From a virus: DNA of 32,917 bases. Under the pieces are notes generated by a model. It saw only the letters and a program-made list of their open reading frames with translations, did not search any database and was not told the origin of the DNA. Positions 89-14,995 of this stretch are shown here, piece by piece; the stretch's first letter is position 1; each line of letters begins with the position of its first letter. Location: IMG/VR virus record IMGVR_UViG_3300026549_000035, positions 1 through 32,917 of that record; one strand, given 5' to 3'. Made by a program: the position numbers and the translations under genes.

Positions 89-96
89 ATGTATTT

Positions 97-125
97 ATTA
101 TAACACACTTTATTAGAAATGTCAA
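97..125 (-). promoter_or_regulatory. Sigma-A type promoter (TTGACA, 17 bp spacer, TATAAT) firing toward the poly(T) tract
   Basis: Minus strand reads TTGACAtttctaataaagtgtgtTATAAT. Positions 97-140 nearly duplicate the promoter block at 1113-1160. Confidence 0.6.
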
Positions 126-276
126 TAGTTTTCGGGAAAATTTTTTCTCGATTGCGCCCGGGCCAAATCAAAACAAAAAGAGCTAAATGGCTAGCCTCGT
201 GAAAATTCGACCGCATCGCGGTCTGTGTCGGTCACCATTCAGCAGGTGACTTTTCACAAAAGTCTTTTAATGGACA

Positions 277-348
277 CTAATCGCAACCAGTGGCACTGGC
301 GCAAACTTTAGCAATCAATAAAAGGGCTTTTACTAATTCAAGAGTCAT
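277..348 (-). CDS. Possible 23-aa hydrophobic peptide (MTLELVKALLLIAKVCASATGCD), apparently translationally coupled downstream of the AbrB-like gene
   Basis: AGGAG 9 nt upstream of the ATG. TAG stop. Followed by a structured ~150 nt 3' region with hairpins GTCACC..GGTGAC and GACCGC..GCGGTC. Confidence 0.3.
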   Translation of the reverse strand: MTLELVKALLLIAKVCASATGCD

Positions 349-367
349 AACATTTAGCTCCTTTCAA

Positions 368-619
368 TTATTTAGTTTTACTTTCAATAAGTTGTATTAA
401 TTTTTCGAATCGCTCATCAACTTCAAGGTCATCTTGCCAGTCTTGCCGCAATTCGTTTAAAACAGGAATAGTATCATTTTGACGTTTGCGTAAAATCAAT
501 TCACCATTGTCTTTTGGAATGATTTCAATTTCATCGCCACCCATCCAACGCAAAGCGCGTCTTACATCTCTTGGAATAGCGATACGTCCAATATCATCAA
601 TCTTTTTAATTATTACCAT
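368..619 (-). CDS. AbrB/MazE/SpoVT-family swapped-hairpin DNA-binding protein (83 aa)
   Basis: N-terminus MVIIKKIDDIGRIAIPRDVRRAL matches the IDxLGRIVIPxxxR AbrB-N motif. RBS GGATGTG. TAA stop. Own promoter at 646-674. Confidence 0.8.
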   Translation of the reverse strand: MVIIKKIDDIGRIAIPRDVRRALRWMGGDEIEIIPKDNGELILRKRQNDTIPVLNELRQDWQDDLEVDERFEKLIQLIESKTK

Positions 620-645
620 TTTATCACATCCTTTATTATAATAAA

Positions 646-674
646 ATTATAACAAATTTTTTCAAAAAAGTCAA
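646..674 (-). promoter_or_regulatory. Sigma-A type promoter TTGACT-17-TATAAT for the AbrB-like gene
   Basis: Minus strand reads TTGACTtttttgaaaaaatttgtTATAAT, followed by the RBS and the ATG. Confidence 0.7.
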
Positions 675-684
675 AAAAATCGGT

Positions 685-722
685 AAAAAACCCTAAAAAA
701 TCGTTATTTTTAGGGTTTTTTC
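685..722. terminator. Intrinsic terminator hairpin AACCCTAAAAA..TTTTTAGGGTT flanked by A and T runs, possibly bidirectional
   Basis: Inverted repeat with a T-tract on both strands, directly after the stop codon of gene 723..1091. Confidence 0.7.
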
Positions 723-1091
723 TTACTTTTTAGGTGGTCTATGCTTAATTAATGTGATAGAATAGTCATTTGAGCCAACAATTAGCGAAATTTCACGCTC
801 TTTTTTGATAATTGATACATCAAAACCGTCTTTTTCACTCAAAAAATCAGCAATTTCTTCAATAATTTGTCTTTTTTCAAGGTCAGGTTTACGTTCTCTT
901 TTAGTGAAATTATACGCTGTTTGTTTGCGTTCAGCCTGTCTATACTTACGGGTGCTTTTTTCTTGCTCAGGAGTTAAGTCAAATTCTGTCTTTTTTCCTT
1001 TGTCAACATCTTCATCATAGGCAAGAATTTCTCTGGCTTCTGCTTCTGAGATATCTAATTTTTTCATTAAAGATTGAATTTTTTCATTCAT
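723..1091 (-). CDS. Hypothetical protein (122 aa), paralog A1 of gene 3049..3417; both end KLIKHRPPKK
   Basis: Start chosen at MNEK, 7 nt after GGGGA. Promoter at 1122-1150. Clear sequence similarity to the 3049..3417 product. Confidence 0.7.
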   Translation of the reverse strand: MNEKIQSLMKKLDISEAEAREILAYDEDVDKGKKTEFDLTPEQEKSTRKYRQAERKQTAYNFTKRERKPDLEKRQIIEEIADFLSEKDGFDVSIIKKEREISLIVGSNDYSITLIKHRPPKK

Positions 1092-1121
1092 AAGCATTTC
1101 CCCTTTTTATTTGATGTATTT

Positions 1122-1150
1122 ATTATAACACATTTTTATTTAAATGTCAA
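1122..1150 (-). promoter_or_regulatory. Sigma-A type promoter TTGACA-17-TATAAT with CGCCCGGGCG palindrome 10 bp upstream of the -35
   Basis: Minus strand reads cgcccgggcgaaaaaactaTTGACAtttaaataaaaatgtgtTATAAT. Confidence 0.7.
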
Positions 1151-1174
1151 TAGTTTTTTCGCCCGGGCGAATCG

Positions 1175-1209
1175 CCCCCCTAAGGGGGCTGAGGGGTTAA
1201 CCCTCAGCC
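1175..1209 (-). other. Tandem GC-rich hairpins (CCCCCCTAAGGGGG and GGCTGAGGGGTTAACCCTCAGCC) at the 3' end of gene 1197..1565
   Basis: The stop codon of the gene lies inside the second hairpin. A near-identical hairpin recurs at 11893-11915. Confidence 0.5.
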
Positions 1210-1565
1210 ACGATACGGAAGTAGGTTCTCCGCTTCTCGGAGTACTTCTCAACCTTGCCTGCTTCAATAAGCTGGCGCATGAGAGCGGAAACGTGCTGAT
1301 TACTGTCGCCTTCAAGCTCAGCGATAGCCTTAAGCAAATCGGAAACAGTGAATCCAGTGTCCGCATTATCAGCAAGGAAATCAACGATAACTTCTTTCAG
1401 TTCCTCGTTTTTAACCTGCTGAGCGGTCAGCTTCTTGGGAGAAGCATTTTTCTTGTCAAGCTGTTCGACCATCTTGGTCAGCTTAGCAATAACTTCAGCA
1501 GGAGCGTCAGTTAGATGGTCGATGGCGTAGGTCAGAGCCTTGCGATTAGTCATCTTGTCGTTCAT
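1197..1565 (-). CDS. Hypothetical winged-helix-like protein (122 aa), paralog B1 of gene 4127..4492
   Basis: Both paralogs share KLTKMVEQLDKKNASPKKLTAQQVKNEELKEVIVDFLADN. RBS AGGAT. Tandem promoters at ~1600-1650 and ~1745-1790 with a conserved TATTACAGTCAAGGG leader. Confidence 0.7.
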   Translation of the reverse strand: MNDKMTNRKALTYAIDHLTDAPAEVIAKLTKMVEQLDKKNASPKKLTAQQVKNEELKEVIVDFLADNADTGFTVSDLLKAIAELEGDSNQHVSALMRQLIEAGKVEKYSEKRRTYFRIVAEG

Positions 1566-1954
1566 AGTATCAAATCCTTTCTGGTTTATTGGGTTTTCCT
1601 TCCCTTACTGTAGTTTTATTATAGCACATTCAGCGCTGATTGTCAAGGGTTTTTTCAAACTTTTTTTATTTTTTATTTTGAACGCCTACTCGTCAGTAGT
1701 TCGGGCAAGGACTAAGTCGTGCTCGCTCTCCGTTCCCTTGACTGTAATACTATTATAACACATTTATAAAAAAATACAAGTGGTAAAATCTACAGAGTTC
1801 GTCTAAATTTTTAACACTTTTTCATGCAAAATGCCAGAACCCCCGGGCGCCATAGGCTTTGAAAGTTTTTCATTTTTTTCTATTATTATTATATAATATT
1901 TTTTTATAAAAATCAATTGGTTCCCCGCTCTTTTCAGAATGGGGAACCTCATGA

Positions 1955-2527
1955 TTAGGCAACAGCGGAAACACCGCTATCCAAATAACTTTTTACGATT
2001 TTGTTAAATGTCAGCGTAGGAATGTCAACACCGAAAAATCGGTCGTTTTTCTTGAAAGCGTCAGGGAATCTGTGAATAAAAGCGGCTCTTGTGACCGATT
2101 CTGCACCCTCGGCAGGATAAGCACCGCAGTCAATTACAGAACAAATATCGGCTGATTCAACAGGAATACCACGCTTTTTATAATACTTGATTTCTTCTTT
2201 CAGTCTTTGCTCAGGTAATCGAGTAGTTGTACCGACCTTTGAGCAAATCAGCTCGCCGTTACTGTCATAGAACTTGTATAAATACACAAGCTGTTTACCG
2301 CCCCTTAAAACCTTTTTAGCTTTCAGGGTAATGTGATAAAATGTCTTGCAGGCTTTTTCTAAAAGTCCAGCAAACTTTTTCACATAACGCTTAATCGTTG
2401 ATTCTGCGTAACCAGTCCATTTCTTGATTTCTTCGGGGGTAAATCCATGACTGTCAAGATAAACCACCTGTAAATGTTTCTTGTCTGTATCCTCAAAACT
2501 TTGGAACACCTCAATTTTCTTTGCCAT
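1955..2527 (-). CDS. Hypothetical protein (190 aa) with a possible N-terminal HTH
   Basis: Start at ATG (MAKKIEV), 10 nt after AAAGGA. The GTG chosen by the ORF caller lies upstream. Promoter TTGACAactggcacagaatgtgcTATAAT at ~2555-2585. Hairpin terminator GGTTCCCC..GGGGAACC at ~1925-1955. Confidence 0.65.
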   Translation of the reverse strand: MAKKIEVFQSFEDTDKKHLQVVYLDSHGFTPEEIKKWTGYAESTIKRYVKKFAGLLEKACKTFYHITLKAKKVLRGGKQLVYLYKFYDSNGELICSKVGTTTRLPEQRLKEEIKYYKKRGIPVESADICSVIDCGAYPAEGAESVTRAAFIHRFPDAFKKNDRFFGVDIPTLTFNKIVKSYLDSGVSAVA

Positions 2528-2589
2528 TTTAACCACGTCCTTTTCTTTAGTGTTTTAATTATAGCACATTCTGTGCCAGTTGTCAAGCG

Positions 2590-2763
2590 TTATCTGTCAA
2601 AAATTGCAATAATAATTGCACAAAGAATGACAATAGCCAGAGGAATCCAGAAGGGGGCAAGAACCCACCACCAAGACCAAGTAATTACGCCGACAAGCTT
2701 CAAGATGATAAAGACAATTCCAAGAACGTCACATACGCCTAAGCCTACAACTTTAGTGTCCAT
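2590..2763 (-). CDS. Small membrane protein (57 aa, two predicted TM segments; the sequence includes a WSWWW motif)
   Basis: Not in the ORF track because it is <60 aa. Promoter TTGACAttctacaacaagtatgcTATAAT and RBS GAAAGGAGAG precede the ATG. Confidence 0.5.
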   Translation of the reverse strand: MDTKVVGLGVCDVLGIVFIILKLVGVITWSWWWVLAPFWIPLAIVILCAIIIAIFDR

Positions 2764-2832
2764 CTTTTTCTCTCCTTTCTCTCTTGATTACAATGTTATT
2801 ATAGCATACTTGTTGTAGAATGTCAATAGTTA

Positions 2833-3036
2833 TTACAAAATTGTAACCGCGCCCGGGCGAAAAAAGGGCGGGGAACGCCCACTTGGAAAAGGCGTTCCCT
2901 CGTTAATAATAAGTGTGATTATTTTCGGTTGCGGGCGAGGAAGTTTAGGAGCTTCTTGCCTTTTCTCGAACTCCTCAACCTCAAGAATAAAAGAGTCAAA
3001 AAAATCCAGAAAATCAGAATAACTTGTGTAATACAT
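2833..3036 (-). CDS. Hypothetical protein (67 aa), translationally coupled to gene 3049..3417
   Basis: Strong RBS GGAGGtttagaATG. The C-terminal part of the ORF runs through a terminator-like hairpin, so its extent is uncertain. Confidence 0.4.
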   Translation of the reverse strand: MYYTSYSDFLDFFDSFILEVEEFEKRQEAPKLPRPQPKIITLIINEGTPFPSGRSPPFFRPGAVTIL

Positions 3037-3048
3037 TCTAAACCTCCA

Positions 3049-3417
3049 TTACTTTTTAGGCGGGCGATGTTTAATCAGCTTCACCGAATAGCTATCACCT
3101 TTGAAAGTGAAATGTAAATCAGTTTCATTTTTCAAGGGTTCTGTGATTGCGCCCATGCCTTCCAAAAGAACACGAATACAGTTAATAATTTCTTTCTTGA
3201 TTTTATCAACTTTTCGCTCTCTTTTTACAGGGGTGCGTTTTTTCGAGCCTACCTTAGAAGCAGATTTTATCGCTTTTTTCTGCTCTGCCGTTAAATCAGA
3301 CTGAGCTTCTTTTACCGACATTTTGTCGATTTCTTCATCTTCTTCAAGAAGTTGAATAGCTTCTTCTCTGGAACATTCAAGCGTTTTCATCAGCTTTTGG
3401 ATTCGTTCTTCATTCAT
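3049..3417 (-). CDS. Hypothetical protein (122 aa), paralog A2 of gene 723..1091
   Basis: Start MNEER after AGAGGTG. Promoter TTGACAttttaatcaaaacgtgtTATAAT at ~3445-3480. Confidence 0.7.
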   Translation of the reverse strand: MNEERIQKLMKTLECSREEAIQLLEEDEEIDKMSVKEAQSDLTAEQKKAIKSASKVGSKKRTPVKRERKVDKIKKEIINCIRVLLEGMGAITEPLKNETDLHFTFKGDSYSVKLIKHRPPKK

Positions 3418-3479
3418 TATTAGCACCTCTCTTTCAGTGTCTTTATTATAACACGTTTTGATTAAAATGTCAATACTTT

Positions 3480-3850
3480 TTTAACAAAAAAAAATCAAAA
3501 TGTGGAGCTTTCATTATGGGGGCGGATCTGTGGATGTTATGGTTACCCTCACCGCCCAATGCTATGTTTTTTGAGTTTTCCTCTCAAAACTCCTAGCTAA
3601 AAACATAGAAAAGACTGGAAAAAGCCACCCCGCTTTTTTTAGTTGTTTTTTAGGTAAAAACATAGAAATGGGAGGTTGAAAACTAAAAAACTGAGCACTT
3701 TCTTTAAATATTTTTTCTTCTTGAAAAATTTTTGCCGCACTCATAGCCGTATTCTAATAAGTCACCAACACATCCATTATTTATTACTCATAGGGTCTTG
3801 ATGTTGGGTATCCCTCGTATAGTCCTAAAGATGAGGTACCTATCTCCTTA
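3480..3850 (-). ncRNA. Candidate non-coding or leader transcript driven by a duplicated ~90-bp promoter cassette (TTGACT-17-TATACT) at ~3855-3935
   Basis: No ATG-initiated ORF with an RBS. The only ORF (3562..3744, 60 aa) is low-complexity with no SD. Internal direct repeats TAAAAACATAGAAA. Ends in a GGGCGG..CCGCCC hairpin plus a U9 tract. Confidence 0.35.
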
Positions 3851-4000
3851 GAACACTTATAGTATAACACATAAAAGGTAAAAAGTCAATAGTTTTTTGA
3901 AAATTTTTTTCGTTATTTTTTTTAACAGGCACCCGGGCGCAAAGCCTGCGGAAATCCGCAGGCTAAGCACAGAAAGGAGGACTCAAAAATGAGGAGTTAT

Positions 4001-4075
4001 TGGTGCGTATAGTGGGAGTCGAACCCACCTAAACACGATTAAAAGTCGTGTGCATAGCCGCTTTGCTACATACGC
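4001..4075 (-). tRNA. tRNA-Lys, anticodon UUU, with an encoded CCA
   Basis: Acceptor stem GCGTATG/TATACGC (six Watson-Crick pairs plus one G-U). D-loop contains GG. Anticodon stem CACGA/TCGTG with loop CTTTTAA. T-arm GTGGG-TTCGACT-CCCAC. Discriminator A then CCA. Co-transcribed downstream of gene 4127..4492. Confidence 0.85.
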
Positions 4076-4126
4076 ATGATAGGGGGTGGGGGGATTTCGC
4101 TCCCCCCACGGAGCGGACTGAGGGAA

Positions 4127-4492
4127 TTAACCCGCAATCTTGAAGTAAGTCCGACGCTTCTCGGAGTATTTCTCGACCTTGTTCGCTTCAACGAGCTGAC
4201 GCATGAGAGCGGAAACGTGCTGATTGCTGTCACCTTCAAGCTCTGTGACAGACTTGATAAGGTCAGTGACCGTGAAGCCCTCATTCTCGTTATCAGCGAG
4301 GAAATCAACAATGACCTCTTTCAGCTCTTCGTTCTTGACCTGCTGAGCGGTCAGCTTCTTGGGAGAAGCGTTCTTCTTCTCCAACTGCTCCACCATCTTC
4401 TGAAGCTTTGCGGTAACTTCGGAATTGCTGTCACCGATAGCGTCGATGGCAAAAAGCAGGGCGGTCTTGTTAGTCATCTTGGTATTACTCAT
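4127..4492 (-). CDS. Hypothetical winged-helix-like protein (121 aa), paralog B2 of gene 1197..1565
   Basis: High sequence identity to 1197..1565. Tandem promoters at ~4545-4580 and ~4715-4760. Confidence 0.7.
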   Translation of the reverse strand: MSNTKMTNKTALLFAIDAIGDSNSEVTAKLQKMVEQLEKKNASPKKLTAQQVKNEELKEVIVDFLADNENEGFTVTDLIKSVTELEGDSNQHVSALMRQLVEANKVEKYSEKRRTYFKIAG

Positions 4493-4834
4493 AGTATCAA
4501 ATCCTTTCTGGTTTATTGGGTTTTCCTTCCCTTACTGTAGTTTTATTATAACACACCTTGCGGTAAAAGTCAAGGGTTTTTTCAAAGTTTTTTGAAAAAA
4601 TTTCTTCAAGTGTTGCAACTGCAATTCGGCTGTGCCTGTCCATTCTCGTAACCCCGTTAGGGATTGGTCATCAAATCACATAGGTCTTGGCTTGCTTGCC
4701 CTTGCCCTTGACTGTAATATTATTATAGCACATTCTCAAAAAAATGCAATAGGCAAAATGCACAAATCGGTCTAAATTTTTAACACTTTTTTGTGCATTT
4801 TGCGGGTGGCGCCCGGGCGCCCAAGGGCAGGCTG

Positions 4835-9856: not shown

Positions 9857-9894
9857 AAGTAGATTATACACGATTATGTTATAAAAGTCAAGCA

Positions 9895-10095: not shown

Positions 10096-10117
10096 CAAAA
10101 AAAAATGCGGTCACCGC

Positions 10118-10528: not shown

Positions 10529-10557
10529 TTGATTTTTGCGGCGGGCTGTGGTATAAT
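10529..10557 (+). promoter_or_regulatory. Plus-strand promoter TTGATT-17-TATAAT driving a short transcript antisense to the 3' end of gene 10603..10911
   Basis: The transcript begins AATTTCCGGC and ends at hairpin GGATTAGC..GCTAATCC (10600-10620). The same architecture recurs at 9094 and 12477. Confidence 0.5.
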
Positions 10558-10602
10558 AATTTCCGGCTCTGGCGCCCGGGCACGGTGACGAAAAGAAAAG
10601 GA

Positions 10603-10911
10603 TTAGCAATACGCTAATCCCATTGTTTTCCAATTCAAAATTGAAATTTGATTGCATTTTCTTCCAATTGTCAGAGCCTCTCTTTTAGTATTAACTCTGT
10701 GACTTTTATCAACATAGTAAATACCATTTGAAAACCATACGCCGCAGTTTCCATTATACGCTTTTACTGCGTTTATTGCTTCTCTTGGGCTTGTCGTTTC
10801 AACGCCTTCCGTTGCAACCTGCCAGCCTGTTTTGTAGGTTGTGGCTTTTCCCTTTTTTAAGGTTAAGCCCTCATTTTCTTTAAGTTTCAGAATTGAACGA
10901 ATGTTAATCAT
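10603..10911 (-). CDS. Hypothetical protein (102 aa)
   Basis: Start MINIRS after AGAGAGGAG. Promoter TTGACTtttcgCTCGGGCtgtgcTATAAT at ~10935-10980. Confidence 0.6.
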   Translation of the reverse strand: MINIRSILKLKENEGLTLKKGKATTYKTGWQVATEGVETTSPREAINAVKAYNGNCGVWFSNGIYYVDKSHRVNTKREALTIGRKCNQISILNWKTMGLAYC

Positions 10912-11002
10912 TTTCTTATCTCCTCTCTTTATTGTGTCTTTATTATAGCACAGCCCGAGCGAAAAGTCAAGTGTTTTTTCAAAAAAAATAAAGGGCGTAT
11001 TT

Positions 11003-11272
11003 TTACGCCCATTGTAATTTTCCATCGACTACATAGATAACACTCTCTGCGCCATCGTATTCATCGACATAGTGGTCGGTGCAATTTTCGGGAAGCTCAA
11101 CAACTTTTAACTCAGCGTGAGTTCCATTTACATCTTCCCCTGCTTCTATTGCTGAGATTAACTCAGCATTATAGCGGAGTTCTTCACTATCATGAGAATC
11201 AATTCCAAGGCGGTCTGCCCATTCCTTAGATACGCTAAATCCACCATAGCAAGCATTGACAATTAATTTCAT
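11003..11272 (-). CDS. Hypothetical acidic protein (89 aa)
   Basis: RBS AAGAGAGGAG. Promoter TTGACTtttggatgcgtctatgcTATAAT at ~11285-11335. Stop overlaps terminator GGGCGTA..TACGCCC plus a T-tract. Confidence 0.65.
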   Translation of the reverse strand: MKLIVNACYGGFSVSKEWADRLGIDSHDSEELRYNAELISAIEAGEDVNGTHAELKVVELPENCTDHYVDEYDGAESVIYVVDGKLQWA

Positions 11273-11397
11273 TTTTTTTTATCTCCTCTCTTTATTGTAT
11301 CTTTATTATAGCATAGACGCATCCAAAAGTCAATAGTTAAATTGCACAAAGATGTGATAAGAATTCTGTGCAGATTGACGAATCCGCCCGGGCGCAA

Positions 11398-11544
11398 TTA
11401 ATAAGGCAGATACGCCTTTTTGTGTTTGCGTTCTGCCTTTCTCAGCTTACCTTTTTTTGTATCTTCTACTTTTGGAGCGAAGCCCACAAAAGTCGGTCCT
11501 CTGTGTTTTCTTTTTTCCTCGGTTTTCTTTGTCCTGTGGCTCAT
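11398..11544 (-). CDS. Small highly basic protein (48 aa; MSHRTKKTEEKRKHRGPTFVGFAPKVEDTKKGKLRKAERKHKKAYLPY), likely nucleic-acid binding
   Basis: Start after GGGGAG. Promoter TTGACAtttgaggggttttgtgcTATAAT. The 79-aa ORF-track version starts upstream of the promoter and is rejected. Confidence 0.5.
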   Translation of the reverse strand: MSHRTKKTEEKRKHRGPTFVGFAPKVEDTKKGKLRKAERKHKKAYLPY

Positions 11545-11587
11545 TTTTATCTCCCCTTTCATTGTCTTTATTATAGCACAAAACCCC

Positions 11588-11881
11588 TCAAATGTCAAGA
11601 GGTTTTTCAGAAAAAAGTTCTTTTTCTTCAATTTCATAGTCTAAGCCATCAAGATGGAAGAAAAAAGCCTTCTTTTTTAATAAAATTTTAAGCCATTCTT
11701 TACCATATAAGTTTTTTAAACTCAACCATTTAGAATAAATTGAATAATAGCTTGTATAATTTTCACTTAATCCCTTGTTATCAATAAGCCATTGGATTGC
11801 GCTTGCATGGCTGTCACAAACCGCTACAACCTCAGTAGTATCATCAAAACCGTAAGTTTCTGTAATTGTAAATACTGTCAT
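11588..11881 (-). CDS. Hypothetical protein (97 aa), co-transcribed after gene 11912..12097
   Basis: RBS AAAAGGAG. Last codons L-D-I then stop are encoded by the next promoter's -35 (cTTGACAtttga). Confidence 0.6.
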   Translation of the reverse strand: MTVFTITETYGFDDTTEVVAVCDSHASAIQWLIDNKGLSENYTSYYSIYSKWLSLKNLYGKEWLKILLKKKAFFFHLDGLDYEIEEKELFSEKPLDI

Positions 11882-11911
11882 TTTTATCGCTCCTTTTGGA
11901 TAGCTGAGGGG

Positions 11912-12097
11912 TTAACTCTCAGCCCACCAGTCAGCAGTTTTCATCTTTGCGATTTCGCCCTCTAAGCGGTCAAGGCTCAGATTGTTGTCGGGATAGCTTT
12001 CGCATTTTCTTGCGAAGTCAATAGTTTCGGGAGCTTCATGTCCGAACATTCTGATTACTTCGGTCAACATTTCTTCTCTTGTTCTTCTTTCTGTCAT
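11912..12097 (-). CDS. Hypothetical protein (61 aa)
   Basis: Promoter TTGACAagcaagggtttttgtgtTATAAT and RBS AAGGAAAGGAAG. Stop inside hairpin GGCTGAGAGTTAACCCCTCAGC. Confidence 0.6.
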   Translation of the reverse strand: MTERRTREEMLTEVIRMFGHEAPETIDFARKCESYPDNNLSLDRLEGEIAKMKTADWWAES

Positions 12098-12184
12098 TTT
12101 GATAACTTCCTTTCCTTTTTTCTGTCTTTATTATAACACAAAAACCCTTGCTTGTCAAGTGTTTTTTAAACAAAATCTGGCGTT

Positions 12185-12355
12185 TTATTTACGCCAGATT
12201 TCAATGCTCTGTGAGTAGTAGCGGTGACCATTGTCATCAACTGCTTTCAGTTCGCAGTAGGTGAAATTTCTCTTTACTCTGTTAAAGTAAGCTCTCGCTT
12301 TTTCCTCAGTGTTAAATTCCTCATAGGTTTTATAAGCAGATACTACAAATGTCAT
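12185..12355 (-). CDS. Small protein (56 aa), paralog of gene 9181..9363
   Basis: Start MTFVV after AAGGAAAGAGAGG. Promoter TTGACTttaaagacttttcatgcTATAAT. The ORF-track N-terminal extension is rejected. Confidence 0.55.
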   Translation of the reverse strand: MTFVVSAYKTYEEFNTEEKARAYFNRVKRNFTYCELKAVDDNGHRYYSQSIEIWRK

Positions 12356-12476
12356 TTTGTTTTCCTCTCTTTCCTTTTTTCTGTCTTTATTATAGCATGA
12401 AAAGTCTTTAAAGTCAATAGGCAAAGTGCACAAATCGGGAGCGCCCGAGCGCATGAAAGTTTGTGCATTTTGCCTA

Positions 12477-12505
12477 TTGATTTTGTGTGGGGATTGTGCT
12501 ATAAT
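12477..12505 (+). promoter_or_regulatory. Plus-strand promoter TTGATT-17-TATAAT, divergent from the promoter of gene 12185..12355. The inverted repeat TGCACAAA..TTTGTGCA (12427-12467) lies between the two -35 elements
   Basis: Transcript ATTTCCGGCUACGCC... ends at hairpin GGGCTGA..TCAGCCC (12542-12559), which is also the terminator of the convergent gene 12553..12903. Confidence 0.5.
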
Positions 12506-12552
12506 ATTTCCGGCTACGCCGATCGTCCTCGAAAATTAAAAGGGCTGATTGC

Positions 12553-12903
12553 TCAGCCCCAAAGTGAATTAACTGCTATTGAAAGAGACCCTTCTCGAAC
12601 ACCAGTTTCACTGTAACCATAGTATTTGCTATAATCTGTTTGATTTTTTTCTCCTCTTGCTTTAATCTCTGCTTGGATTCTACGCCAACCAATTTCAAAG
12701 CAATAATCTATAAACCATTCAGAATATCTATATTTTTCTCTTCTTGCTTTACTATAGGTCATAACAGCAATTTGATCATTAGGGTATTCTCTTTTTAACT
12801 GTTGCTTTAATGCTTGTAATTCCTCAATGTTAGTGGAGTGTTGGATAATTTTACAACCATCGTGAGAAGGTTTTTCGTTTACTTTAATTACTGCATACTC
12901 CAT
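12553..12903 (-). CDS. Hypothetical protein (116 aa)
   Basis: Promoter TTGACAagCCCGGGCtaatatgcTATAAT. RBS AAAGAGAGAGG. Confidence 0.65.
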   Translation of the reverse strand: MEYAVIKVNEKPSHDGCKIIQHSTNIEELQALKQQLKREYPNDQIAVMTYSKARREKYRYSEWFIDYCFEIGWRRIQAEIKARGEKNQTDYSKYYGYSETGVREGSLSIAVNSLWG

Positions 12904-13009
12904 GATTATTTTCCTCTCTCTTTACTGTGTTTTTATTATAGCATATTAGCCCGGGCTTGTCAAGCGTTTTTTGAAAAAAAATAAAAAAAATAAGACTGAT
13001 TGCTCAGTC

Positions 13010-13324
13010 TTATAAATCTTCATCCATAGCATCTTCATAACACTTTGAACAATAGATTTTATTATTAATTAAATCTTCAAGGCTATCACCGAGTCTTAGT
13101 TCCAAATCTAAGGCGGAAACTGTCTCGCCGCAATCAGGACAAATAAAGATTTTTTGCTCTCTCAGGAAAGTATCTATTCTTTTACCTTCGGCGCTAAGTC
13201 TTGATTTTTCTCTCTGGCGAATTTCTCCACGATATTTATAAACCTTAACATACTTTTCGTGATACTTTGTGTAATAATTATTGGCATAGTCTAGTGCGAG
13301 TTCAGCAATTTCTTTTCTTGTCAT
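13010..13324 (-). CDS. Hypothetical zinc-ribbon protein (104 aa; CPDCGETV...CSKCYED)
   Basis: Start MTRKEIAEL after AAGGAAAGAGAGG. Promoter TTGACAttttgCTCGGGCtatgcTATAAT. Terminator AAGACTGA..TCAGTCTT with a T-run at ~12975-13010. Confidence 0.6.
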   Translation of the reverse strand: MTRKEIAELALDYANNYYTKYHEKYVKVYKYRGEIRQREKSRLSAEGKRIDTFLREQKIFICPDCGETVSALDLELRLGDSLEDLINNKIYCSKCYEDAMDEDL

Positions 13325-13440
13325 TTTTATTTTCCTCTCTTTCCTTTTTTCTGTATTTATTATAGCATAGCCCGAGCAAAATGTCAAGTGTTTTTTGAAA
13401 ATTTTTTTTGTTAATTTTTTAACAATCCATTTCCATAAAT

Positions 13441-13465
13441 AAAAACCGCCGTAGCGGTTTTTATT
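13441..13465 (-). terminator. Intrinsic terminator AAAACCGC-CGTA-GCGGTTTT. A second copy lies at 13764-13786
   Basis: Stem ACCGC/GCGGT with a CGTA loop flanked by A and T runs. Shares the CCGTAGCGG core with repeats in 14150-15310. Confidence 0.6.
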
Positions 13466-13489
13466 TAATTAATCACAGTACATCCAAGT

Positions 13490-13642
13490 TTCAAGTTCTT
13501 TCAAAGATACACCAAGATACTTTGACGCTGACTTCCAGCTTTCATCCAGTTTATCAAAAAAGATATCGTTCTGTTCATCTGTTAAACTATTGATTTTGGC
13601 TTCTACCTTATTGTATGTTTTTGTTAATTTTTTGACTGTCAT
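13490..13642 (-). CDS. Small protein (about 50 aa; MTVKKLTKTYNKVEAKINSLTDEQNDIFFDKLDESWKSASKYLGVSLKRT)
   Basis: RBS AAGAGAGGAG. Promoter TTGACAttttaCTCGGGCtatgtTATAAT. A +1 frame would extend it to 13468 across an A4/T5 run, so the 3' end is uncertain. Confidence 0.4.
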
Positions 13643-13782
13643 TTTTATTATCTCCTCTCTTTATCTTGATTACATTATAACATAGCCCGAGTAAAATGTC
13701 AAGTGTTTTTTTGAAAAAAATAAAAATTTTTTTTGTTAAATTTTTAACAATTTTTCCCAAAATTAAAACCGCCGTAGCGGTT

Positions 13783-13980
13783 TTAATCCATGTGTTCTTG
13801 GCGAACTACAAAGAACTTGTCGACCTTAGTCCAGTCAACCTTGTCACCGTTCCAGAGTCTTGCGGGTTTGGTAGCGTTCAGAGTGTTTACCTCAGCCTCG
13901 GCTCTTTCCACGGTCTTGTAGGTTTCGTATGCGAGATAGCTCTCACCAGTCTTGGTAGTGTAACAGATAGCAGTTGTCAT
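13783..13980 (-). CDS. Small protein (65 aa)
   Basis: Promoter TTGACAtttcctgtaattcatgtTATAAT. RBS AAGGAAAGGAAG. Followed by the CCGTAGCGG terminator. Confidence 0.55.
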   Translation of the reverse strand: MTTAICYTTKTGESYLAYETYKTVERAEAEVNTLNATKPARLWNGDKVDWTKVDKFFVVRQEHMD

Positions 13981-14204
13981 TTTAATACTTCCTTTCCTTT
14001 TTTCTGTCTAAATTATAACATGAATTACAGGAAATGTCAATAGTCAAATTGCACAAAGATAATCGCTAAAAAAAGGTTGGTTTTGTGCATAGTGCCCAAT
14101 TAGGGCTGTGCCGACCGTTGACGTAGATTGTTAATTATTTAACAATCTATCCCCAACCTGTGTCTAACTGATAGATGTTGACACCGTAGCGGTTTACATC
14201 ATTG

Positions 14205-14365
14205 TGTGTATAACACTGTTGTTCTGTGTGTGATACTCTCTCTTTGTCTTTGTGTGTGTTGTGCTTCTCTCTCTCTCTCTTTGCTTCTCTTTGTGTGTAT
14301 GCTTCTCTCTCTCTCTCTCTTTGCTTCTCTCTTACTCTCTTTGAGTGTGTCACACACACAAACGC
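14205..14365. repeat. Low-complexity CT/GT-rich tract with ~38-bp tandem units (GCTTCTCTCTCTCTCTCTTTGCTTCTCTTTGTGTGTAT-like)
   Basis: Read directly from the sequence. Lies 3' of gene 14374..14703. The overlapping ORFs in both strands here are low-complexity artefacts. Confidence 0.7.
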
Positions 14366-14373
14366 CTTGCCCC

Positions 14374-14703
14374 TTAGTCAGCAAAAGGGTCAAGGCGCAC
14401 ACTCAAGATTTCATCATCATAGATGGTTGAAGTTCCCTGATTATCCATGAGTACAATAACAGAGTTATCTTTTTGAAAATTTTCTGTTCCAAAGAACTCC
14501 CAAATCTCTCCATGAGAATCTTCTATTTGAACAGTGTCCGAGGCTGTATCTACATCTACTACTTTAGCCTGCATGGTGTAATTAGTATCATTAGTCGTGG
14601 GTGAACTTGCGCGATAAATAAGACATACTACAAAAATGGTAACTATTACCAAATGTGTTACTACGCAGATGTTAATGATTGCATAGAATGTTTTGTTTTC
14701 CAT
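14374..14703 (-). CDS. Membrane-anchored protein (109 aa; N-terminal TM helix, beta-rich C-terminal domain)
   Basis: Promoter TTGACAagaagccaagagtatgcTATAAT, preceded by the TGCACAAA..TTTGTGCA inverted repeat. RBS AAAGAGAGAGAGG. Confidence 0.65.
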   Translation of the reverse strand: MENKTFYAIINICVVTHLVIVTIFVVCLIYRASSPTTNDTNYTMQAKVVDVDTASDTVQIEDSHGEIWEFFGTENFQKDNSVIVLMDNQGTSTIYDDEILSVRLDPFAD

Positions 14704-14995
14704 GGGTGATTGTCCTCTCTCTCTTTATTGTATCTTTATTATAGCATACTCTTGGCTTCTTGTCAATAGTCAAATTGCACAAAGATAGTATTAGTCTTTT
14801 GTGCATTTTGCCAATAGCACAAACGTTCGAACGCTCCCCCAATCTTGGCACTACGCTGATGGGAGCGTGTGCCGTAGCGGTTACTGGGGCTGTAGGTTGG
14901 TTAGCCAATGCTAACTTAATAGGGAGATTACCCTAATTAGTAAAATAGGGGTTAGGTATTGCTAACTCAATTCAAACAAAAGTTCGAACAAACGT

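What the first reader, a model, noticed from the sequence alone, without database searches (positions are those of the whole stretch)
90..14770. Early module built from ~35 stereotyped promoter-leader-gene-terminator cassettes with duplicated genes
Almost every small gene has its own perfect TTGACA-17-TATAAT promoter. The leader AAAGACA...AAAGAGAGGAG follows the -10 and is conserved between cassettes. Each gene has a hairpin terminator. Gene ends are frequently encoded by the terminator stem, or by the -35 TTGACA of the next promoter (genes at 7321, 11588, 10118, 10603 and 6664). Paralog pairs and families were identified by eye from the translated sequences: 723/3049 (shared KLIKHRPPKK end), 1197/4127 (shared KLTKMVEQLDKKNASPKK... 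block), 9181/12185/13783, and the promoter pairs 7290/8510 and 3855/6575. These indicate expansion by cassette duplication. The architecture resembles host-takeover modules of large virulent Firmicutes phages, but the gene content (AbrB-like regulator, HAD nucleotidase, basic 48-aa peptide, membrane miniproteins) does not match anything I can name.
Basis: partly seen in the sequence, partly recalled or inferred. Interest (0 to 1): 0.7.

Follow-up and report, generated by a model that had tools for sequence, protein, structure and literature searches.

The report
Shuffling early-gene cassettes, recoded gut phage
This is the early-gene region of a large uncultured phage: about 35 tiny self-contained units (strong host-type promoter, short leader, one small gene, often a terminator) that are gained, lost, swapped and reordered between closely related strains exactly at the shared promoter sequences. 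This design is known from phages SPO1 and T4, here seen in an unusually dense form in a phage group that reads the TAG stop codon as an amino acid.

Summary
The strict pattern TTGACA-N17-TATAAT (at most 1 mismatch) occurs 29 times against 0.55 expected. Of these, 27 lie on the minus strand between 97 and 14766. Most are followed by a purine-rich leader, a strong ribosome-binding site and an ATG 24-34 nt after the -10.

The window is the end of a 177.5-kb contig from a phage distantly related to phAss-1. Its plus-strand late genes use TAG as a sense codon; the early module uses the standard code.

The same architecture is present in 80 related viral contigs, in phAss-1 and in the cultured Enterococcus phage VRE9_2, but gene content turns over quickly. 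Close strains differ from the window by whole-cassette insertions, deletions, coding-sequence swaps and one permutation. All 21 breakpoints fall in promoter-leader or stop/terminator zones, which make up 36% of the compared sequence.

Most small ORFs are under purifying selection (dN/dS 0.03-0.2). Two of the three claimed paralog families hold in full; gene 13783 does not belong to the third. Not every gene has a terminator, and at least six promoters have no ORF.

[quoted passage not shown] I rate it a new variant of a known kind, interest about 0.5. Early timing and host-takeover function are inferred, not shown.

The parts
15626..15970 (-). Cassette 1, next to the module boundary. Promoter TTGATT-17-TATAAT with -35 at 15970; gene 15626-15913 (95 aa, DUF7352).
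   Evidence: It sits back to back with the perfect plus-strand promoter at 15973.
15973..16001 (+). Perfect TTGACA-17-TATAAT promoter that marks the boundary. It drives the first plus-strand gene, 16031-17077, whose only functional label is the PHROG family 'sigma factor'. That gene has 2 in-frame TAG codons.
   Evidence: The same divergent promoter pair sits at this boundary in most of the 80 related loci.
14374..14766 (-). Cassette: perfect promoter (-35 at 14766) and gene 14374-14703 (109 aa, N-terminal membrane helix). The hairpin spans the stop codon.
13766..14040 (-). Cassette: perfect promoter, gene 13783-13980 (65 aa), terminator AAACCGCTACGGCGGTTTT.
   Evidence: dN/dS is 0.50. It is not a paralog of 9181/12185.
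13443..13702 (-). Cassette: perfect promoter, gene 13469-13642 (57 aa), terminator.
   Evidence: In strain L101 its order relative to the next cassette is reversed.
12990..13387 (-). Cassette: perfect promoter, gene 13010-13324 (104 aa, CxxC...CxxC), terminator 12990-13013.
   Evidence: dN/dS is 0.14.
12541..12963 (-). Cassette: perfect promoter with GCCCGGGC in the spacer, gene 12553-12903 (116 aa), terminator 12541-12560.
   Evidence: In six strain contigs, homology to the window begins exactly at the -35 (12963), with other cassettes upstream.
12171..12417 (-). Cassette: promoter TTGACT-17-TATAAT, gene 12185-12355 (56 aa, paralog of 9181-9363), hairpin spanning the stop.
11588..12158 (-). 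Bicistronic cassette: perfect promoter, genes 11912-12097 (61 aa) and 11588-11881 (97 aa). The second gene ends inside the -35 of the next promoter.
11398..11598 (-). Cassette: perfect promoter whose -35 lies in the loop of a hairpin; gene 11398-11544 (48 aa, very basic peptide).
10993..11333 (-). Cassette: promoter (11/12 match), gene 11003-11272 (89 aa, phrog_16527), terminator 10993-11010.
10599..10970 (-). Cassette: promoter (11/12 match), gene 10603-10911 (102 aa), terminator 10599-10621 containing the stop codon.
   Evidence: Homologs at up to 78% identity in 11 related loci.
10111..10448 (-). Cassette: promoter (11/12 match), gene 10118-10375 (85 aa), terminator 10111-10140 containing the stop codon.
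   Evidence: dN/dS is 0.16. L095 has an extra cassette inserted exactly at this -35.
9736..9891 (-). ORF-less cassette: promoter (11/12 match), a transcript of about 125 nt, and its own terminator 9736-9751.
   Evidence: Fold z-score is -2.7. It is flanked by 95%-identical direct repeats (9887-9926 and 9679-9718) and is absent from strain L095. No Rfam match.
9455..9683 (-). Cassette: promoter TTGACA-17-TATACT, gene 9455-9622 (55 aa).
   Evidence: dN/dS is 0.09.
9158..9425 (-). Cassette: perfect promoter (GGGC-TTGACAA-GCCC hairpin followed by GCCCGGGC), gene 9181-9363 (60 aa), terminator 9158-9186.
   Evidence: In L095 the coding sequence alone is replaced, between positions 9346 and 9184, inside a conserved promoter and terminator.
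8546..9010 (-). Cassette: perfect promoter, gene 8546-8950 (134 aa, NT5C-type 5'(3')-deoxyribonucleotidase).
   Evidence: dN/dS is 0.06.
8320..8531 (-). Cassette with an extended -10 (TGATATAAT) but a poor -35; gene 8320-8481 (53 aa).
   Evidence: 82% identical to the 7331 promoter-leader. The whole cassette is absent from L095.
7849..8312 (-). Cassette: perfect promoter with GCCCGGGC in the spacer; gene 7849-8250 (133 aa). This is the only early gene that ends in TAG.
7321..7558 (-). Cassette: perfect promoter with an 18-nt spacer, an 82-nt GC-rich leader, and gene 7321-7446 (41 aa) that ends in the next -35.
6664..7331 (-). Bicistronic cassette: perfect promoter, genes 7017-7271 (84 aa, membrane) and 6664-7014 (116 aa). 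A hairpin spans the stop.
   Evidence: dN/dS is 0.14 and 0.15.
6200..6595 (-). ORF-less unit: promoter TTGACT-17-TATACT. The promoter region is 88-93% identical to that at 3889.
   Evidence: Fold z-score is -0.8. 79% identical to L095.
5881..6199 (-). ORF-less unit: promoter (11/12 match), a standard leader without a start codon, a transcript of about 290 nt, and terminator 5881-5902.
   Evidence: Fold z-score is -2.7. It is 96.7% identical to L095, but the high identity covers the whole stretch 6230-5700.
5512..5763 (-). Cassette: promoter TTGATT-17-TATAAT, gene 5512-5703 (63 aa, membrane).
   Evidence: dN/dS is 0.09.
4835..5423 (-). Cassette: promoter TAGACA-17-TATAAT, gene 4835-5332 (165 aa).
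   Evidence: The cassette is absent from L095, with breakpoints at the -35 (5423) and at GCCCGGGC (4818), and is flanked by roughly 70-nt direct repeats.
4574..4749 (-). Upstream tandem promoter TTGCAT-16-TGnTATAAT with an ORF-less leader of about 130 nt. It is duplicated at about 1779.
   Evidence: (repeat families D12, D18).
4001..4573 (-). Cassette: promoter (11/12 match), gene 4127-4492 (121 aa, winged-helix-like, paralog of 1197-1565), followed by tRNA-Lys(UUU) at 4001-4075.
3474..3889 (-). ORF-less unit: promoter TTGACT-17-TATACT, a duplicate of the 6595 promoter.
2833..3473 (-). Cassette: perfect promoter, gene 3049-3417 (122 aa, paralog of 723-1097), probable gene 2833-3036 (67 aa), and terminator 2866-2880.
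   Evidence: dN/dS is 0.03 and 0.45.
2590..2826 (-). Cassette: perfect promoter, gene 2590-2763 (57 aa, membrane; phrog_1374).
   Evidence: L095 has an extra 145-aa cassette here, flanked by repeats of this promoter region.
1955..2586 (-). Cassette: perfect promoter, gene 1955-2527 (190 aa; weak T5orf172 match).
   Evidence: dN/dS is 0.04.
1647..1916 (-). Two weak promoters (TTGATT-17-TATAAT at 1916; TTGTAT-16-TGnTATAAT at about 1779) with no ORF. This is the duplicate of 4700-4820.
1197..1646 (-). Cassette: perfect promoter, gene 1197-1565 (122 aa, winged-helix-like).
   Evidence: The family has at least 575 members in metagenomes, some named as transcriptional regulators by their source.
685..1150 (-). 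Cassette: perfect promoter, gene 723-1097 (122-124 aa, with invariant KRERK and a ...KHRPPKK end), terminator 685-721.
   Evidence: The family has at least 324 members. The model found no fold match in the PDB. L095 has an extra 103-aa cassette flanked by repeats of this promoter-leader.
232..674 (-). Cassette: promoter (11/12 match), gene 368-619 (83 aa, AbrB/MazE fold), then a 38-codon ORF at 232-348 with an in-frame TAG.
1..125 (-). Perfect promoter at 97-125 whose transcript runs into a homopolymer tract of about 90 nt at the contig end. In close strains the same promoter drives an HD-domain gene or another gene.
156..12956 (.). Eleven copies of the palindrome GCCCGGGC (starts 156, 1161, 2851, 4811, 5803, 6637, 8298, 9411, 10574, 11386, 12949), all within the early module. 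Most lie between an upstream hairpin and the A/T-rich stretch upstream of the next promoter; three sit directly after TTGACAA in the promoter spacer.
   Evidence: (CCCGGGC: 25 strand-hits against 0.6 expected). The placement is the same in related loci L005, L008, L016 and L045; L044 also carries four copies in its early region.
9094..12505 (+). Three antisense-oriented plus-strand promoters (9094-9122, 10529-10557, 12477-12505). At least 12477 and 10529 sit back to back with a minus-strand promoter. Each is followed by ATTTC(C)GG and a short GC hairpin.
   Evidence: (repeat family D13).

Best explanation
The region is the standard-code early module of a phage of about 177 kb from the wider group that contains phAss-1. 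Its late genes read TAG as glutamine.

**Proposed mechanism.**
- On infection, the host's primary-sigma RNA polymerase recognises some 35 near-consensus promoters. Each has an A/T-rich upstream element, TTGACA, a 17-bp spacer and TGnTATAAT.
- Each promoter makes a short transcript with a leader of about 25 nt that is purine-rich and unstructured, a strong ribosome-binding site and usually one small gene. About a third of the transcripts end at an intrinsic terminator that often overlaps the stop codon.
- This gives immediate, parallel, high-level expression of many small proteins: a deoxyribonucleotidase, an AbrB-fold protein, two winged-helix-like proteins, membrane mini-proteins and many ORFans. 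A few ORF-less RNAs and a tRNA-Lys are expressed the same way.
- The products presumably redirect or disarm the host.

**How the module evolves.** The junction (hairpin, often GCCCGGGC, A/T-rich stretch, promoter, leader) is repeated about 35 times. It therefore also serves as a substrate for homologous recombination. Cassettes are duplicated, deleted, inserted, swapped and permuted between co-circulating strains without loss of expression signals. Gene content turns over fast while the regulatory frame persists.

**Hand-over to later genes.** A back-to-back promoter pair at 15970/15973 separates the module from the TAG-recoded block. The first gene of that block is labelled 'sigma factor' in PHROGs and itself contains in-frame TAGs.

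**Shown versus inferred.** Shown: sequence architecture, its conservation, purifying selection on the ORFs, and breakpoint positions. Inferred: early timing, use of host sigma-A, host-takeover or anti-defence roles, and recombination as the mechanism.
For: - **Promoter excess and strand bias:** 29 hits against 0.55 expected.
- **Stereotyped leader and -10-to-ATG spacing:**
- **Terminator-like sites:** 38 against 13.4 expected; hairpins at stop codons.
- **Code split:** coding density of the plus-strand block rises from 42% to 95% when TAG is read as sense. There are 82 in-frame TAGs in 4,932 late codons. Early genes end in TAA 26 times, TGA 4 times and TAG once.
- **Relatedness:** the capsid protein is 50% identical to that of phAss-1, a published code-15 phage.
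- **Conservation of the architecture:**
  - phAss-1 has 37 such minus-strand promoters in its last 46 kb.
  - The 80 IMG/VR loci typically have 7-21 in the 10 kb upstream of the same boundary gene, essentially all on that strand and side.
  - 588 distinct promoters give the same consensus and the same ATG spacing.
  - Cultured Enterococcus phage VRE9_2 has about 19.
- **Gene turnover:** about half of the window's early proteins have no tblastn hit in those loci; the rest match at 30-78% identity in shuffled positions.
- **The ORFs are real genes:** dN/dS is 0.03-0.2 for most; identical proteins recur in several samples.
- **The cassette is the unit of change:**
  - Against L095 (about 92% nucleotide identity) there are 8 events: insertion, deletion or replacement of single cassettes.
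  - Six contigs with an identical 116-aa gene carry different upstream cassettes, including a reversed order.
  - 21 of 21 breakpoints lie in junction zones covering 36% of the compared sequence, and 17 of 21 in promoter-leader zones covering 31%.
  - Among more distant pairs, 46% of breakpoints lie within 60 nt of a -35, against 22% at random.
Against: - There are no transcription data, so timing, start sites and termination efficiency are unknown.
- The host is unknown.
- Only about 12 junctions have a canonical T-run terminator, so many units may be read through as longer transcripts.
- Breakpoints were taken from BLAST segment ends, and similarity between non-orthologous promoters biases these towards promoter edges. 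The events are also not all independent.
- Some strain evidence comes from short-read contigs of 1-3 kb.
- The 'sigma factor' label rests on one PHROG family. Pfam, a PDB profile search and a fold search gave nothing.
- No early protein has a demonstrated host target.
Confidence: 0.72

Rival explanations
1. Cassettes move by a dedicated, site-specific mechanism rather than by general homologous recombination. In this reading the GCCCGGGC palindrome (or the hairpin next to it) is cut or bound by a phage- or host-encoded enzyme, as attC sites are in integrons or target sites are for homing endonucleases.
For: - GCCCGGGC occurs 11 times in the early module and never in the late region, against about 0.6 expected for the 7-mer core.
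- It occupies the same place between hairpin and promoter in relatives L005, L008, L016 and L045.
- Six of the breakpoints lie within 15 nt of a copy.
- HNH endonuclease genes are present in the genome.
Against: - Only 11 of about 35 junctions carry the motif, and most relatives have none.
- Breakpoints at promoters with the motif are about as frequent as expected from the share of promoters that carry it (6 of about 14, against 32% of promoters).
- Many breakpoints lie in the leader or the first codons, far from any copy.
- There is no integrase or recombinase in the module.
- The HNH genes sit in apparent group I introns of late genes.
Confidence: 0.1
2. The repeated junctions are purely regulatory: strong, insulated expression signals, with GCCCGGGC and the TTTGTGCA inverted repeats acting as operators for shut-off by a phage repressor. 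In this reading the apparent cassette shuffling is an artefact of short-read assembly across repeats.
For: - The junction repeats (60-100 nt at 75-95% identity) are the kind of sequence that can confuse assemblers.
- Several variant contigs are only 1-3 kb.
- The window's own contig breaks right after promoter 125, where strains differ.
- The palindromic motifs look like operators, and the most widely conserved early proteins in the related loci include DNA-binding-like folds (winged helix, AbrB).
Against: - The 49-aa/116-aa junction was recovered in six different samples, and L099 reproduces the window exactly over 2,917 nt.
- L095 and L096, from two assemblies, share the same eight differences.
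- The promoter copies share few long exact words.
- Cassette-level differences also separate long IMG/VR contigs of 100-200 kb.
- A regulatory role for the motifs is compatible with the best explanation rather than opposed to it.
Confidence: 0.08
3. The promoters are not used by the unmodified host polymerase at time zero. Instead they are middle promoters, or promoters used throughout infection, read by a phage-modified polymerase or phage sigma. In this reading the module is not 'early'.
For: - No timing data exist.
- A putative phage sigma gene lies next to the module.
- There are at least two promoter classes with different upstream elements: an A-tract class and a TTTGTGCAATTTG class. phAss-1 likewise has two visibly different promoter series.
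Against: - The sites match the primary-sigma consensus perfectly, including the extended -10 typical of Firmicutes.
- The putative sigma gene itself has the same promoter type.
- The module avoids in-frame TAG, so it can be translated before any suppressor tRNA is made. Late genes cannot.
- By established knowledge, SPO1, T4 and T5 all use such promoters for their earliest genes.
Confidence: 0.08

Closest known systems
SPO1 host-takeover module (Bacillus phage SPO1, genes 37-60)
   Same: - A 12-13 kb cluster of about 26 mostly small early genes.
[quoted passage not shown]
- Read by host sigma-A before a phage sigma takes over (PMC6873191; PMC13401047 abstract).
   Different: - No sequence homology to SPO1 proteins was detected.
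- Promoter density here is roughly two to three times higher, at about one per 470 bp and mostly one gene per promoter. The SPO1 count of about 12 promoters is from my own recollection of Stewart et al. 1998.
- Location in a terminal redundancy could not be tested.
- The phage belongs to another lineage and is TAG-recoded.
- No toxicity or shut-off data exist.
PeSLs (promoter-early stem-loops) of T4-like phages
   Same: - Composite terminator/early-promoter motifs that flank small ORFan genes in hyperplastic regions.
- They mark the ends of insertions, deletions and replacements between close relatives (PMC2839356, PMC4122927).
- Here the equivalent junction marks 21 of 21 breakpoints.
   Different: - The phage lineage and host type are unrelated (Firmicutes-type promoters with an extended -10).
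- The shared element extends through a conserved purine-rich leader and the ribosome-binding site.
- An extra GCCCGGGC palindrome is present at a third of the junctions.
- The array is contiguous over at least 16 kb rather than scattered between core genes.
- Circular intermediates were not tested.
phAss-1 / proposed Phassvirus (code-15 human-gut phages)
   Same: - TAG is used as a sense codon in late genes.
- The capsid protein is 50% identical.
- My scan of the phAss-1 genome shows a comparable minus-strand promoter array.
   Different: - There is no nucleotide-level similarity; the window's phage is a distant relative.
- The published description does not mention promoters, early genes or cassettes.
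- No suppressor tRNA lies within this window.
T5 pre-early/early region
   Same: From my own knowledge: very strong sigma-70-type promoters drive the first genes to enter the cell, and these include a 5'-deoxyribonucleotidase (dmp). The window has an NT5C deoxyribonucleotidase, and close strains add HD-domain, second NT5C and deoxyribosyltransferase genes.
   Different: - No homology to T5 was tested.
- No evidence of two-step DNA injection.
- Different host group.
Integron gene cassettes
   Same: Arrays of single small genes that are gained, lost and reordered as units, with a recurring palindromic element at their boundaries.
   Different: - No integrase and no attC-like imperfect inverted repeats.
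- Every cassette carries its own promoter.

Membership tests
SPO1-type host-takeover module | Cluster of many small genes with strong primary-sigma promoters and strong ribosome-binding sites | tested here: met
   34-36 promoters and 31 genes in 15.9 kb; consensus leader and ribosome-binding site.
SPO1-type host-takeover module | Lies in the terminal redundancy of the genome | not testable with these tools
   The window starts at a contig end. No read data are available to find the genome ends.
SPO1-type host-takeover module | Products shut off host DNA, RNA or cell division, or are toxic when expressed | not testable with these tools
   Only the sequence is available. Named folds are NT5C, AbrB/MazE and winged-helix-like.
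SPO1-type host-takeover module | Homology to SPO1 gp37-gp60 | tested here: not met
   None of the families matched in Pfam or PHROGs carries a named SPO1 host-takeover function; most proteins match nothing.
PeSL-type mobile regulatory cassettes (T4-like phages) | Conserved composite motif of stem-loop/terminator plus early promoter, repeated many times | tested here: met
   Repeat families D1-D7 of 11-18 copies covering promoter and leader; hairpins at stop codons.
PeSL-type mobile regulatory cassettes (T4-like phages) | Flanks small, poorly conserved ORFs in a hyperplastic region | tested here: met
   About half of the early ORFs have no homolog in 80 related loci even though the adjacent boundary gene is 54-79% identical.
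PeSL-type mobile regulatory cassettes (T4-like phages) | Insertion, deletion and replacement end points between close relatives fall in the motif | tested here: met
   21 of 21 breakpoints in junction zones covering 36% of the compared sequence; twofold enrichment among other pairs. Caveat: BLAST-end bias and non-independent events.
PeSL-type mobile regulatory cassettes (T4-like phages) | Occurs in T4-like myoviruses of Gram-negative hosts, between core gene blocks | tested here: not met
   Capsid, portal and boundary genes relate to phAss-1 and to 134-142 kb Enterococcus phages. This is an analogue, not a member.
PeSL-type mobile regulatory cassettes (T4-like phages) | Excised circular cassette intermediates | not testable with these tools
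   Needs PCR on infected cells.
Code-15 (TAG to Gln) recoded phages related to phAss-1 | Essential late genes are interrupted by in-frame TAG and become continuous when TAG is read as sense | tested here: met
   Coding density rises from 42% to 95%; 82 TAG in 16 ORFs.
Code-15 (TAG to Gln) recoded phages related to phAss-1 | TAG positions align with glutamine in homologs | tested here: met
   In the boundary gene, TAG and Q alternate at the same alignment columns across relatives.
Code-15 (TAG to Gln) recoded phages related to phAss-1 | Suppressor tRNA with anticodon CUA encoded by the phage | not testable with these tools
   The only tRNA in the window is tRNA-Lys(UUU). The remaining 145 kb of the contig was not available.
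Phage-encoded sigma factor (for the boundary gene 16031-17077) | Recognisable sigma-70 regions 2 and 4, or a sigma fold | tested here: inconclusive
   PHROG 5767 'sigma factor' at E 2e-27, and the homolog in VRE9_2 carries that annotation. There is no Pfam hit, no PDB sequence hit, the model has mean pLDDT 66 and no fold match.
Integron cassette array | Integrase plus attC recombination sites; cassettes without promoters | tested here: not met
   No recombinase in the module; every cassette has its own promoter.

The most novel reading that the evidence does not exclude
The junction is more than a promoter. In this reading the hairpin, GCCCGGGC, upstream element, promoter and leader together form a dedicated exchange-and-control module.
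- GCCCGGGC and the TTTGTGCA inverted repeats would be operators or cleavage sites for the conserved winged-helix, KRERK-motif or AbrB-like early proteins.
- The conserved antisense promoters, each followed by a GC hairpin, would impose a programmed shut-off.
- The hand-over to late genes would be timed by TAG codons inside the putative sigma gene.

Taken together this would be a phage 'gene-cassette platform', functionally comparable to an integron but self-expressing, coupled to a genetic-code switch.
Probability: 0.15. Interest if true: 0.8.

Novelty: new variant of a known kind. Interest (0 to 1): 0.5.

Why it matters
- **Scope of the mechanism.** Promoter/terminator-mediated modular shuffling has so far been documented only for T4-like phages of Gram-negative hosts. 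This finding suggests it also shapes the early-gene arsenal of a very abundant group of phages that appear to infect Firmicutes and are mostly uncultured. The boundary gene alone has more than 4,800 homologs in metagenomes.
- **Link to the code switch.** The finding ties this architecture to stop-codon recoding. The standard-code part of the genome is precisely the cassette array that the naive host can express.
- **Practical value.**
  - The promoters and leaders are a ready-made set of strong, compact expression signals for Gram-positive hosts.
  - The small conserved ORFs are candidates for host-takeover or anti-defence proteins.
  - Enterococcus phages VRE9 and EF1 are a cultured system in which the predictions can be tested.

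Tried and rejected
- **Nucleotide search against 50,697 phage records.** Nothing found for the early module.
- **Viral-contig scan with the 190-aa protein.** No relatives found.
- **Rfam at E up to 1.** Only the tRNA; no family for any ORF-less transcript.
- **ORF-less units.**
  - No nucleotide or translated similarity in 80 related loci.
  - Fold z-scores are modest (-2.7, -2.7, -0.8).
  - The 96.7% identity of 6170-5870 to L095 looked like selection on an RNA, but the high identity extends over the whole stretch 6230-5700. It may be a recent exchange.
- **Gene 13783 as a third paralog of 9181/12185.** Rejected.
- **Composite design with the -35 in a hairpin loop.** Common in VRE9_2, but found at only 2 of 27 window promoters and in 8% of relatives' promoters, against 3% in a shuffled control.
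- **GCCCGGGC as the specific recombination point.** Not enriched at breakpoints beyond its association with promoters.
- **RNAalifold on the plus-strand transcripts.** It found no structure. A manually specified hairpin on relatives only gave 80% paired cells, against 33-49% in slid controls.
- **Structure prediction and PDB fold search.**
  - The conserved 122-aa protein gave no match.
  - The putative sigma gave no match.
  - The PDB profile search gave none.
- **The ACCGCTACGG repeat.** Absent from all related loci searched.
- **Prophage or lysogeny module, and integron.** No integrase, recombinase or repressor module in the region.

Full report

Yes.

- The strict pattern TTGACA-N17-TATAAT with at most one mismatch occurs 29 times in the window, against 0.55 +/- 0.77 in dinucleotide-preserving shuffles.
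- Of these, 27 are on the minus strand between 97 and 14766. One perfect copy on the plus strand at 15973 points away from the module. None lies in 16002-32917.
- The looser scan gives 85 promoter-like sites against 36.6 +/- 6.2, and 38 terminator-like sites against 13.4 +/- 3.2.
- Adding sites with two mismatches and extended -10 sites gives 34-36 minus-strand promoters in 15.9 kb.
- The consensus across copies is an A/T-rich upstream element, TTGACA, a spacer, TG-n-TATAAT, AAAGACA, and then a purine-only leader with a strong ribosome-binding site.
- 24 of 28 promoters have the TGn extension.
- In 22 of 33 promoters an ATG follows 24-34 nt after the -10.
- The five named cases of gene ends lying in the next -35 or in a terminator stem are all correct. 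At least 13 genes have the 5' arm of a hairpin inside the coding sequence.

**2. Corrections to the description.**

- Terminators are not universal. About 20 of 31 genes have a stable hairpin at the stop, about 12 have a T-run, and about 8 have none.
- Four units are bicistronic.
- At least six promoters (9891, 6595, 6199, 3889, 4749, 1916/1779) have no ORF behind them. A seventh (125) runs into the contig end.
- Paralogy holds for 1197/4127 (79% identity), 723/3049 (41%) and 9181/12185 (32%, E 2e-6). It does not hold for 13783.
- The promoter pairs 7290/8510 and 3855/6575 are real.
- Pfam and PHROGs confirm the NT5C nucleotidase and the AbrB/MazE-fold protein. Apart from a few unnamed, weak or DUF matches (phrog_16527, phrog_1374, Tmemb_185A, T5orf172, HTH_27, DUF7352), they find nothing else.

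**3. What the window is.**

- It is the first 32.9 kb of a 177,555-bp ENA contig.
- The plus-strand half encodes portal, capsid and other late proteins.
- Its coding density is 42% under the standard code and 95% if TAG is read as sense. There are 82 in-frame TAGs in 4,932 codons.
- The capsid protein is 50% identical to that of phAss-1, a published code-15 human-gut phage, and 40% identical to 134-142 kb Enterococcus phages.
- The early module uses the standard code. Its genes end in TAA (26), TGA (4) and TAG (1).
- The module is also richer in G+C (0.31-0.46 against 0.25-0.39).
- A back-to-back promoter pair at 15970/15973 separates the two halves. The first plus-strand gene matches PHROG 5767 'sigma factor'.

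**4. The architecture is a property of the whole group; the genes are not.**

- Using the boundary gene as an anchor, 80 IMG/VR loci were fetched.
- Where 10 kb of upstream sequence is available they typically carry 7-21 strict promoters, all on the corresponding strand, and the same divergent pair at the boundary.
- 588 distinct promoters give the same consensus and the same -10-to-ATG distance.
- phAss-1 has 37 such minus-strand promoters in its last 46 kb. Its description never mentions promoters.
- The cultured, non-recoded Enterococcus phage VRE9_2 has about 19.
- By contrast, about half of the window's early proteins have no tblastn match in these loci. The others match at 30-78% identity in different positions.
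- Among the most widely shared genes are the adjacent pair duplicated in the window. One is a winged-helix-like protein (family of at least 575 members). The other is a basic protein with an invariant KRERK motif (at least 324 members).

**5. The small ORFs are real genes.**

Against strain contigs at 81-99% nucleotide identity, dN/dS is 0.03-0.2 for most genes. The signal is weaker for 13783-13980, 7321-7446, 2833-3036 and 2590-2763. Identical proteins recur in independent samples.

**6. The cassette is the unit of change.**

Compared with L095 and L096 (about 92% identity over aligned blocks), the window differs by eight events:

- An extra 63-aa cassette in L095, inserted at the -35 of P10448.
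- A 238-nt insertion in L095 just after the terminator at 10111-10140.
- The ORF-less 9891 cassette, which L095 lacks; in the window it is flanked by 95%-identical repeats.
- Replacement of the coding sequence only, between 9346 and 9184, within a conserved promoter and terminator.
- The 53-aa cassette (8545-8320), which L095 lacks.
- The 165-aa cassette, which L095 lacks. It is bounded by the -35 at 5423 and GCCCGGGC at 4818, with 70-nt flanking repeats.
- Two extra cassettes in L095, each flanked by duplicated promoter or promoter-leader sequence (2865-2796 and 1157-1097).

Further evidence:

- Seven short contigs carry the identical 116-aa protein. One (L099) reproduces the window exactly. 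The other six carry different upstream neighbours, with homology starting exactly at 12963, the first base of the -35. In L101 the 57-aa and 104-aa cassettes are in the opposite order.
- All 21 distinct breakpoints lie in junction zones that make up 36% of the compared sequence. 17 lie in promoter-leader zones (31%). Only one falls inside a coding region, and that ORF (2833-3036) is doubtful.
- Among 16 other related pairs, 46% of 118 breakpoints lie within 60 nt of a -35, against 22% at random.
- Caveats: BLAST ends are pulled towards shared promoter sequence, events are shared between pairs, and some contigs are short.

**7. Mechanism proposed.**

- The host's primary-sigma polymerase fires all cassettes at once on infection.
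- The short unstructured purine leader and strong ribosome-binding site give immediate translation.
- Terminators that overlap stop codons partly insulate the units.
- The repeated junction also acts as portable homology, which lets recombination add, delete, swap and reorder cassettes without disturbing expression.
- Standard-code usage lets the naive cell translate the module, whereas late genes need TAG suppression.
- All of this is inference from sequence and from the behaviour of SPO1, T4 and T5.

**8. Comparison with known systems.**

- It works like the SPO1 host-takeover module (PMC6873191) and like the PeSLs of T4-like phages (PMC2839356, PMC4122927).
- It is not a member of either. 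There is no protein homology to SPO1, and the phage lineage and host type differ from T4-likes.
- It differs in density, in the conserved leader, in the GCCCGGGC element and in the link to recoding.
- It is not an integron.

**9. Things that remain unexplained.**

- GCCCGGGC occurs 11 times in the early module and never in the late region. It sits between hairpin and promoter, or just after TTGACAA, and is placed the same way in several relatives.
- TTTGTGCANTTTGNC occurs 10 times against 0.14 expected, in inverted pairs just upstream of a subset of promoters.
- Three antisense plus-strand promoters belong to a class conserved across the group. Their transcripts begin GGAATTTCGG followed by a GC hairpin with compensatory changes. 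In some relatives and in phAss-1 they face a minus-strand promoter about 30-50 bp away.
- Four copies of a 45-nt element, ACCGCTACGG-hairpin-AGGTTGG, have compensatory stem changes and are specific to this lineage.
- The ORF-less transcripts have no known counterpart.

**10. Verdict.**

- It is a new variant of a known kind, of moderate interest (0.5).
- A 15% chance remains that the junction motifs and antisense promoters amount to a dedicated cassette-exchange and timing system.

Noticed in passing
window 16031-32917 (+): The late, plus-strand half is TAG-recoded. ORFs of at least 100 aa cover 42% under the standard code and 95% with TAG read as sense. There are 82 in-frame TAGs in 16 ORFs. 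The two capsid-region genes, 26588-27613 and 27620-28738, contain none.
   Followed up: yes
window 16031-17077 (+): The boundary gene (PHROG label 'sigma factor') has two in-frame TAGs at codons 260 and 262. The 87 residues after them are homologous to the C-terminus of the 339-aa VRE9_2 protein. Relatives carry 0-7 TAGs that align with Q. The full-length regulator would therefore need suppression. Its identity as a sigma factor could not be confirmed by Pfam, PDB or fold search.
   Followed up: partly
window ~17905-19040, ~19803-20222, ~21571-22908 (+): Three probable group I introns in late genes, with sequences resembling the classical P/Q/R/S elements (for example ...AATTGCGGGAAAC..., ...TCAACGACTATCC..., ...AAGATATAGTC...). 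Two of them carry HNH/NUMOD endonuclease ORFs (18059-18898 and 21751-22587). Rfam did not report them.
   Followed up: partly
window 1-90: A homopolymer tract of about 90 nt (T on the plus strand) sits at the contig end, directly after promoter 125. Close strains continue here with an HD-domain gene (L086, L088, L095) or another gene (L087). The tract is probably an assembly artefact at a strain-variable junction. The module continues at least 9 kb further, with about 20 more small genes in L086.
   Followed up: yes
window 156-12956: The palindrome GCCCGGGC occurs 11 times, only in the early module. It lies at cassette junctions or directly after TTGACAA. The placement is the same in related loci L005, L008, L016 and L045; L044 also carries four copies in its early region. 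Its function is unknown; it could be an operator, a processing site or a recombination site.
   Followed up: partly
window 9094-9122, 10529-10557, 12477-12505 (+); L005, L010-L012, L015, L017, L027, L030, L033, L068, L070; phAss-1 130714, 132917, 134921: A conserved class of antisense-oriented promoters lies inside early modules.
- Each transcript starts (G)GAATTTCGG followed by a GC-rich hairpin whose stem varies with compensatory changes.
- In some relatives and in phAss-1 the promoter faces a minus-strand promoter 30-50 bp away.
- In the window, at least two of the three sit back to back with a minus-strand promoter and point into the 3' end of the upstream cassette.
   Followed up: partly
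window 4752-4804, 9037-9051, 10512-10526, 11336-11350, 12420-12474, 14043-14057, 14769-14812: The motif TTTGTGCA(N)TTTG(N)C occurs 10 times against 0.14 expected, mostly as inverted pairs 14-25 bp apart. It sits immediately upstream of the -35 of a subset of promoters. This defines a second promoter class and looks like an operator.
   Followed up: partly
window 15262-15310, 14991-15039, 14835-14883, 14151-14199 (-): Four copies of an element of about 45 nt: ACCGCTACGG, a two-part hairpin with a C(C/T)(T/C)ATC loop, then AGGTTGG. The stems differ by compensatory changes. All four lie in the two large ORF-less gaps near the module boundary. The element is absent from all related loci searched.
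   Followed up: partly
window 15316-15533 (-): A non-coding stretch between cassette 1 and cassette 2 is conserved at 68-78% nucleotide identity in relatives such as L005-L008 and L042; shorter matches within the 14767-15625 gap reach 18 loci. It matches in several reading frames, so it is not coding. Its role is unknown.
   Followed up: partly
window 14210-14370 (-): A low-complexity purine-rich tract, (AG)n and (CA)n, lies between gene 14374-14703 and the next promoter. It is unexplained.
   Followed up: no
window 7560-7848 and 9940-10040 (-): Clusters of short palindromes of the type CTTTAAC-N2-GTTAAAG, together with shared 36-nt repeats, lie upstream of promoters 7558 and 9891. They are partly conserved in L005, L008 and L038. 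They may be binding sites for a regulator.
   Followed up: no
window 232-348 (-): A 38-codon ORF downstream of the AbrB-like gene has a good ribosome-binding site and an in-frame TAG (…CASATGCD-TAG-CPLKDFC…, four cysteines). It is identical in eight strain contigs. It would be the only recoded gene in the early module.
   Followed up: partly
window 4001-4075 (-): tRNA-Lys(UUU) is embedded in an early cassette, directly after gene 4127-4492 and before a hairpin. It is presumably co-transcribed from promoter 4573.
   Followed up: no
window 1-16000 versus 16001-32917: G+C is 0.31-0.46 in the early module and 0.25-0.39 in the late block. GC skew flips sign at the boundary.
   Followed up: no
L106 (Enterococcus phage VRE9_2, PP680568, 123.8-131.3 kb): A cultured, non-recoded relative has about 19 near-consensus promoters in 7.5 kb. 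Many have the -35 in the loop of a terminator-like hairpin (…AAGGG-TTGACAA-ACCCTT…). This makes it a practical model for experiments.
   Followed up: partly
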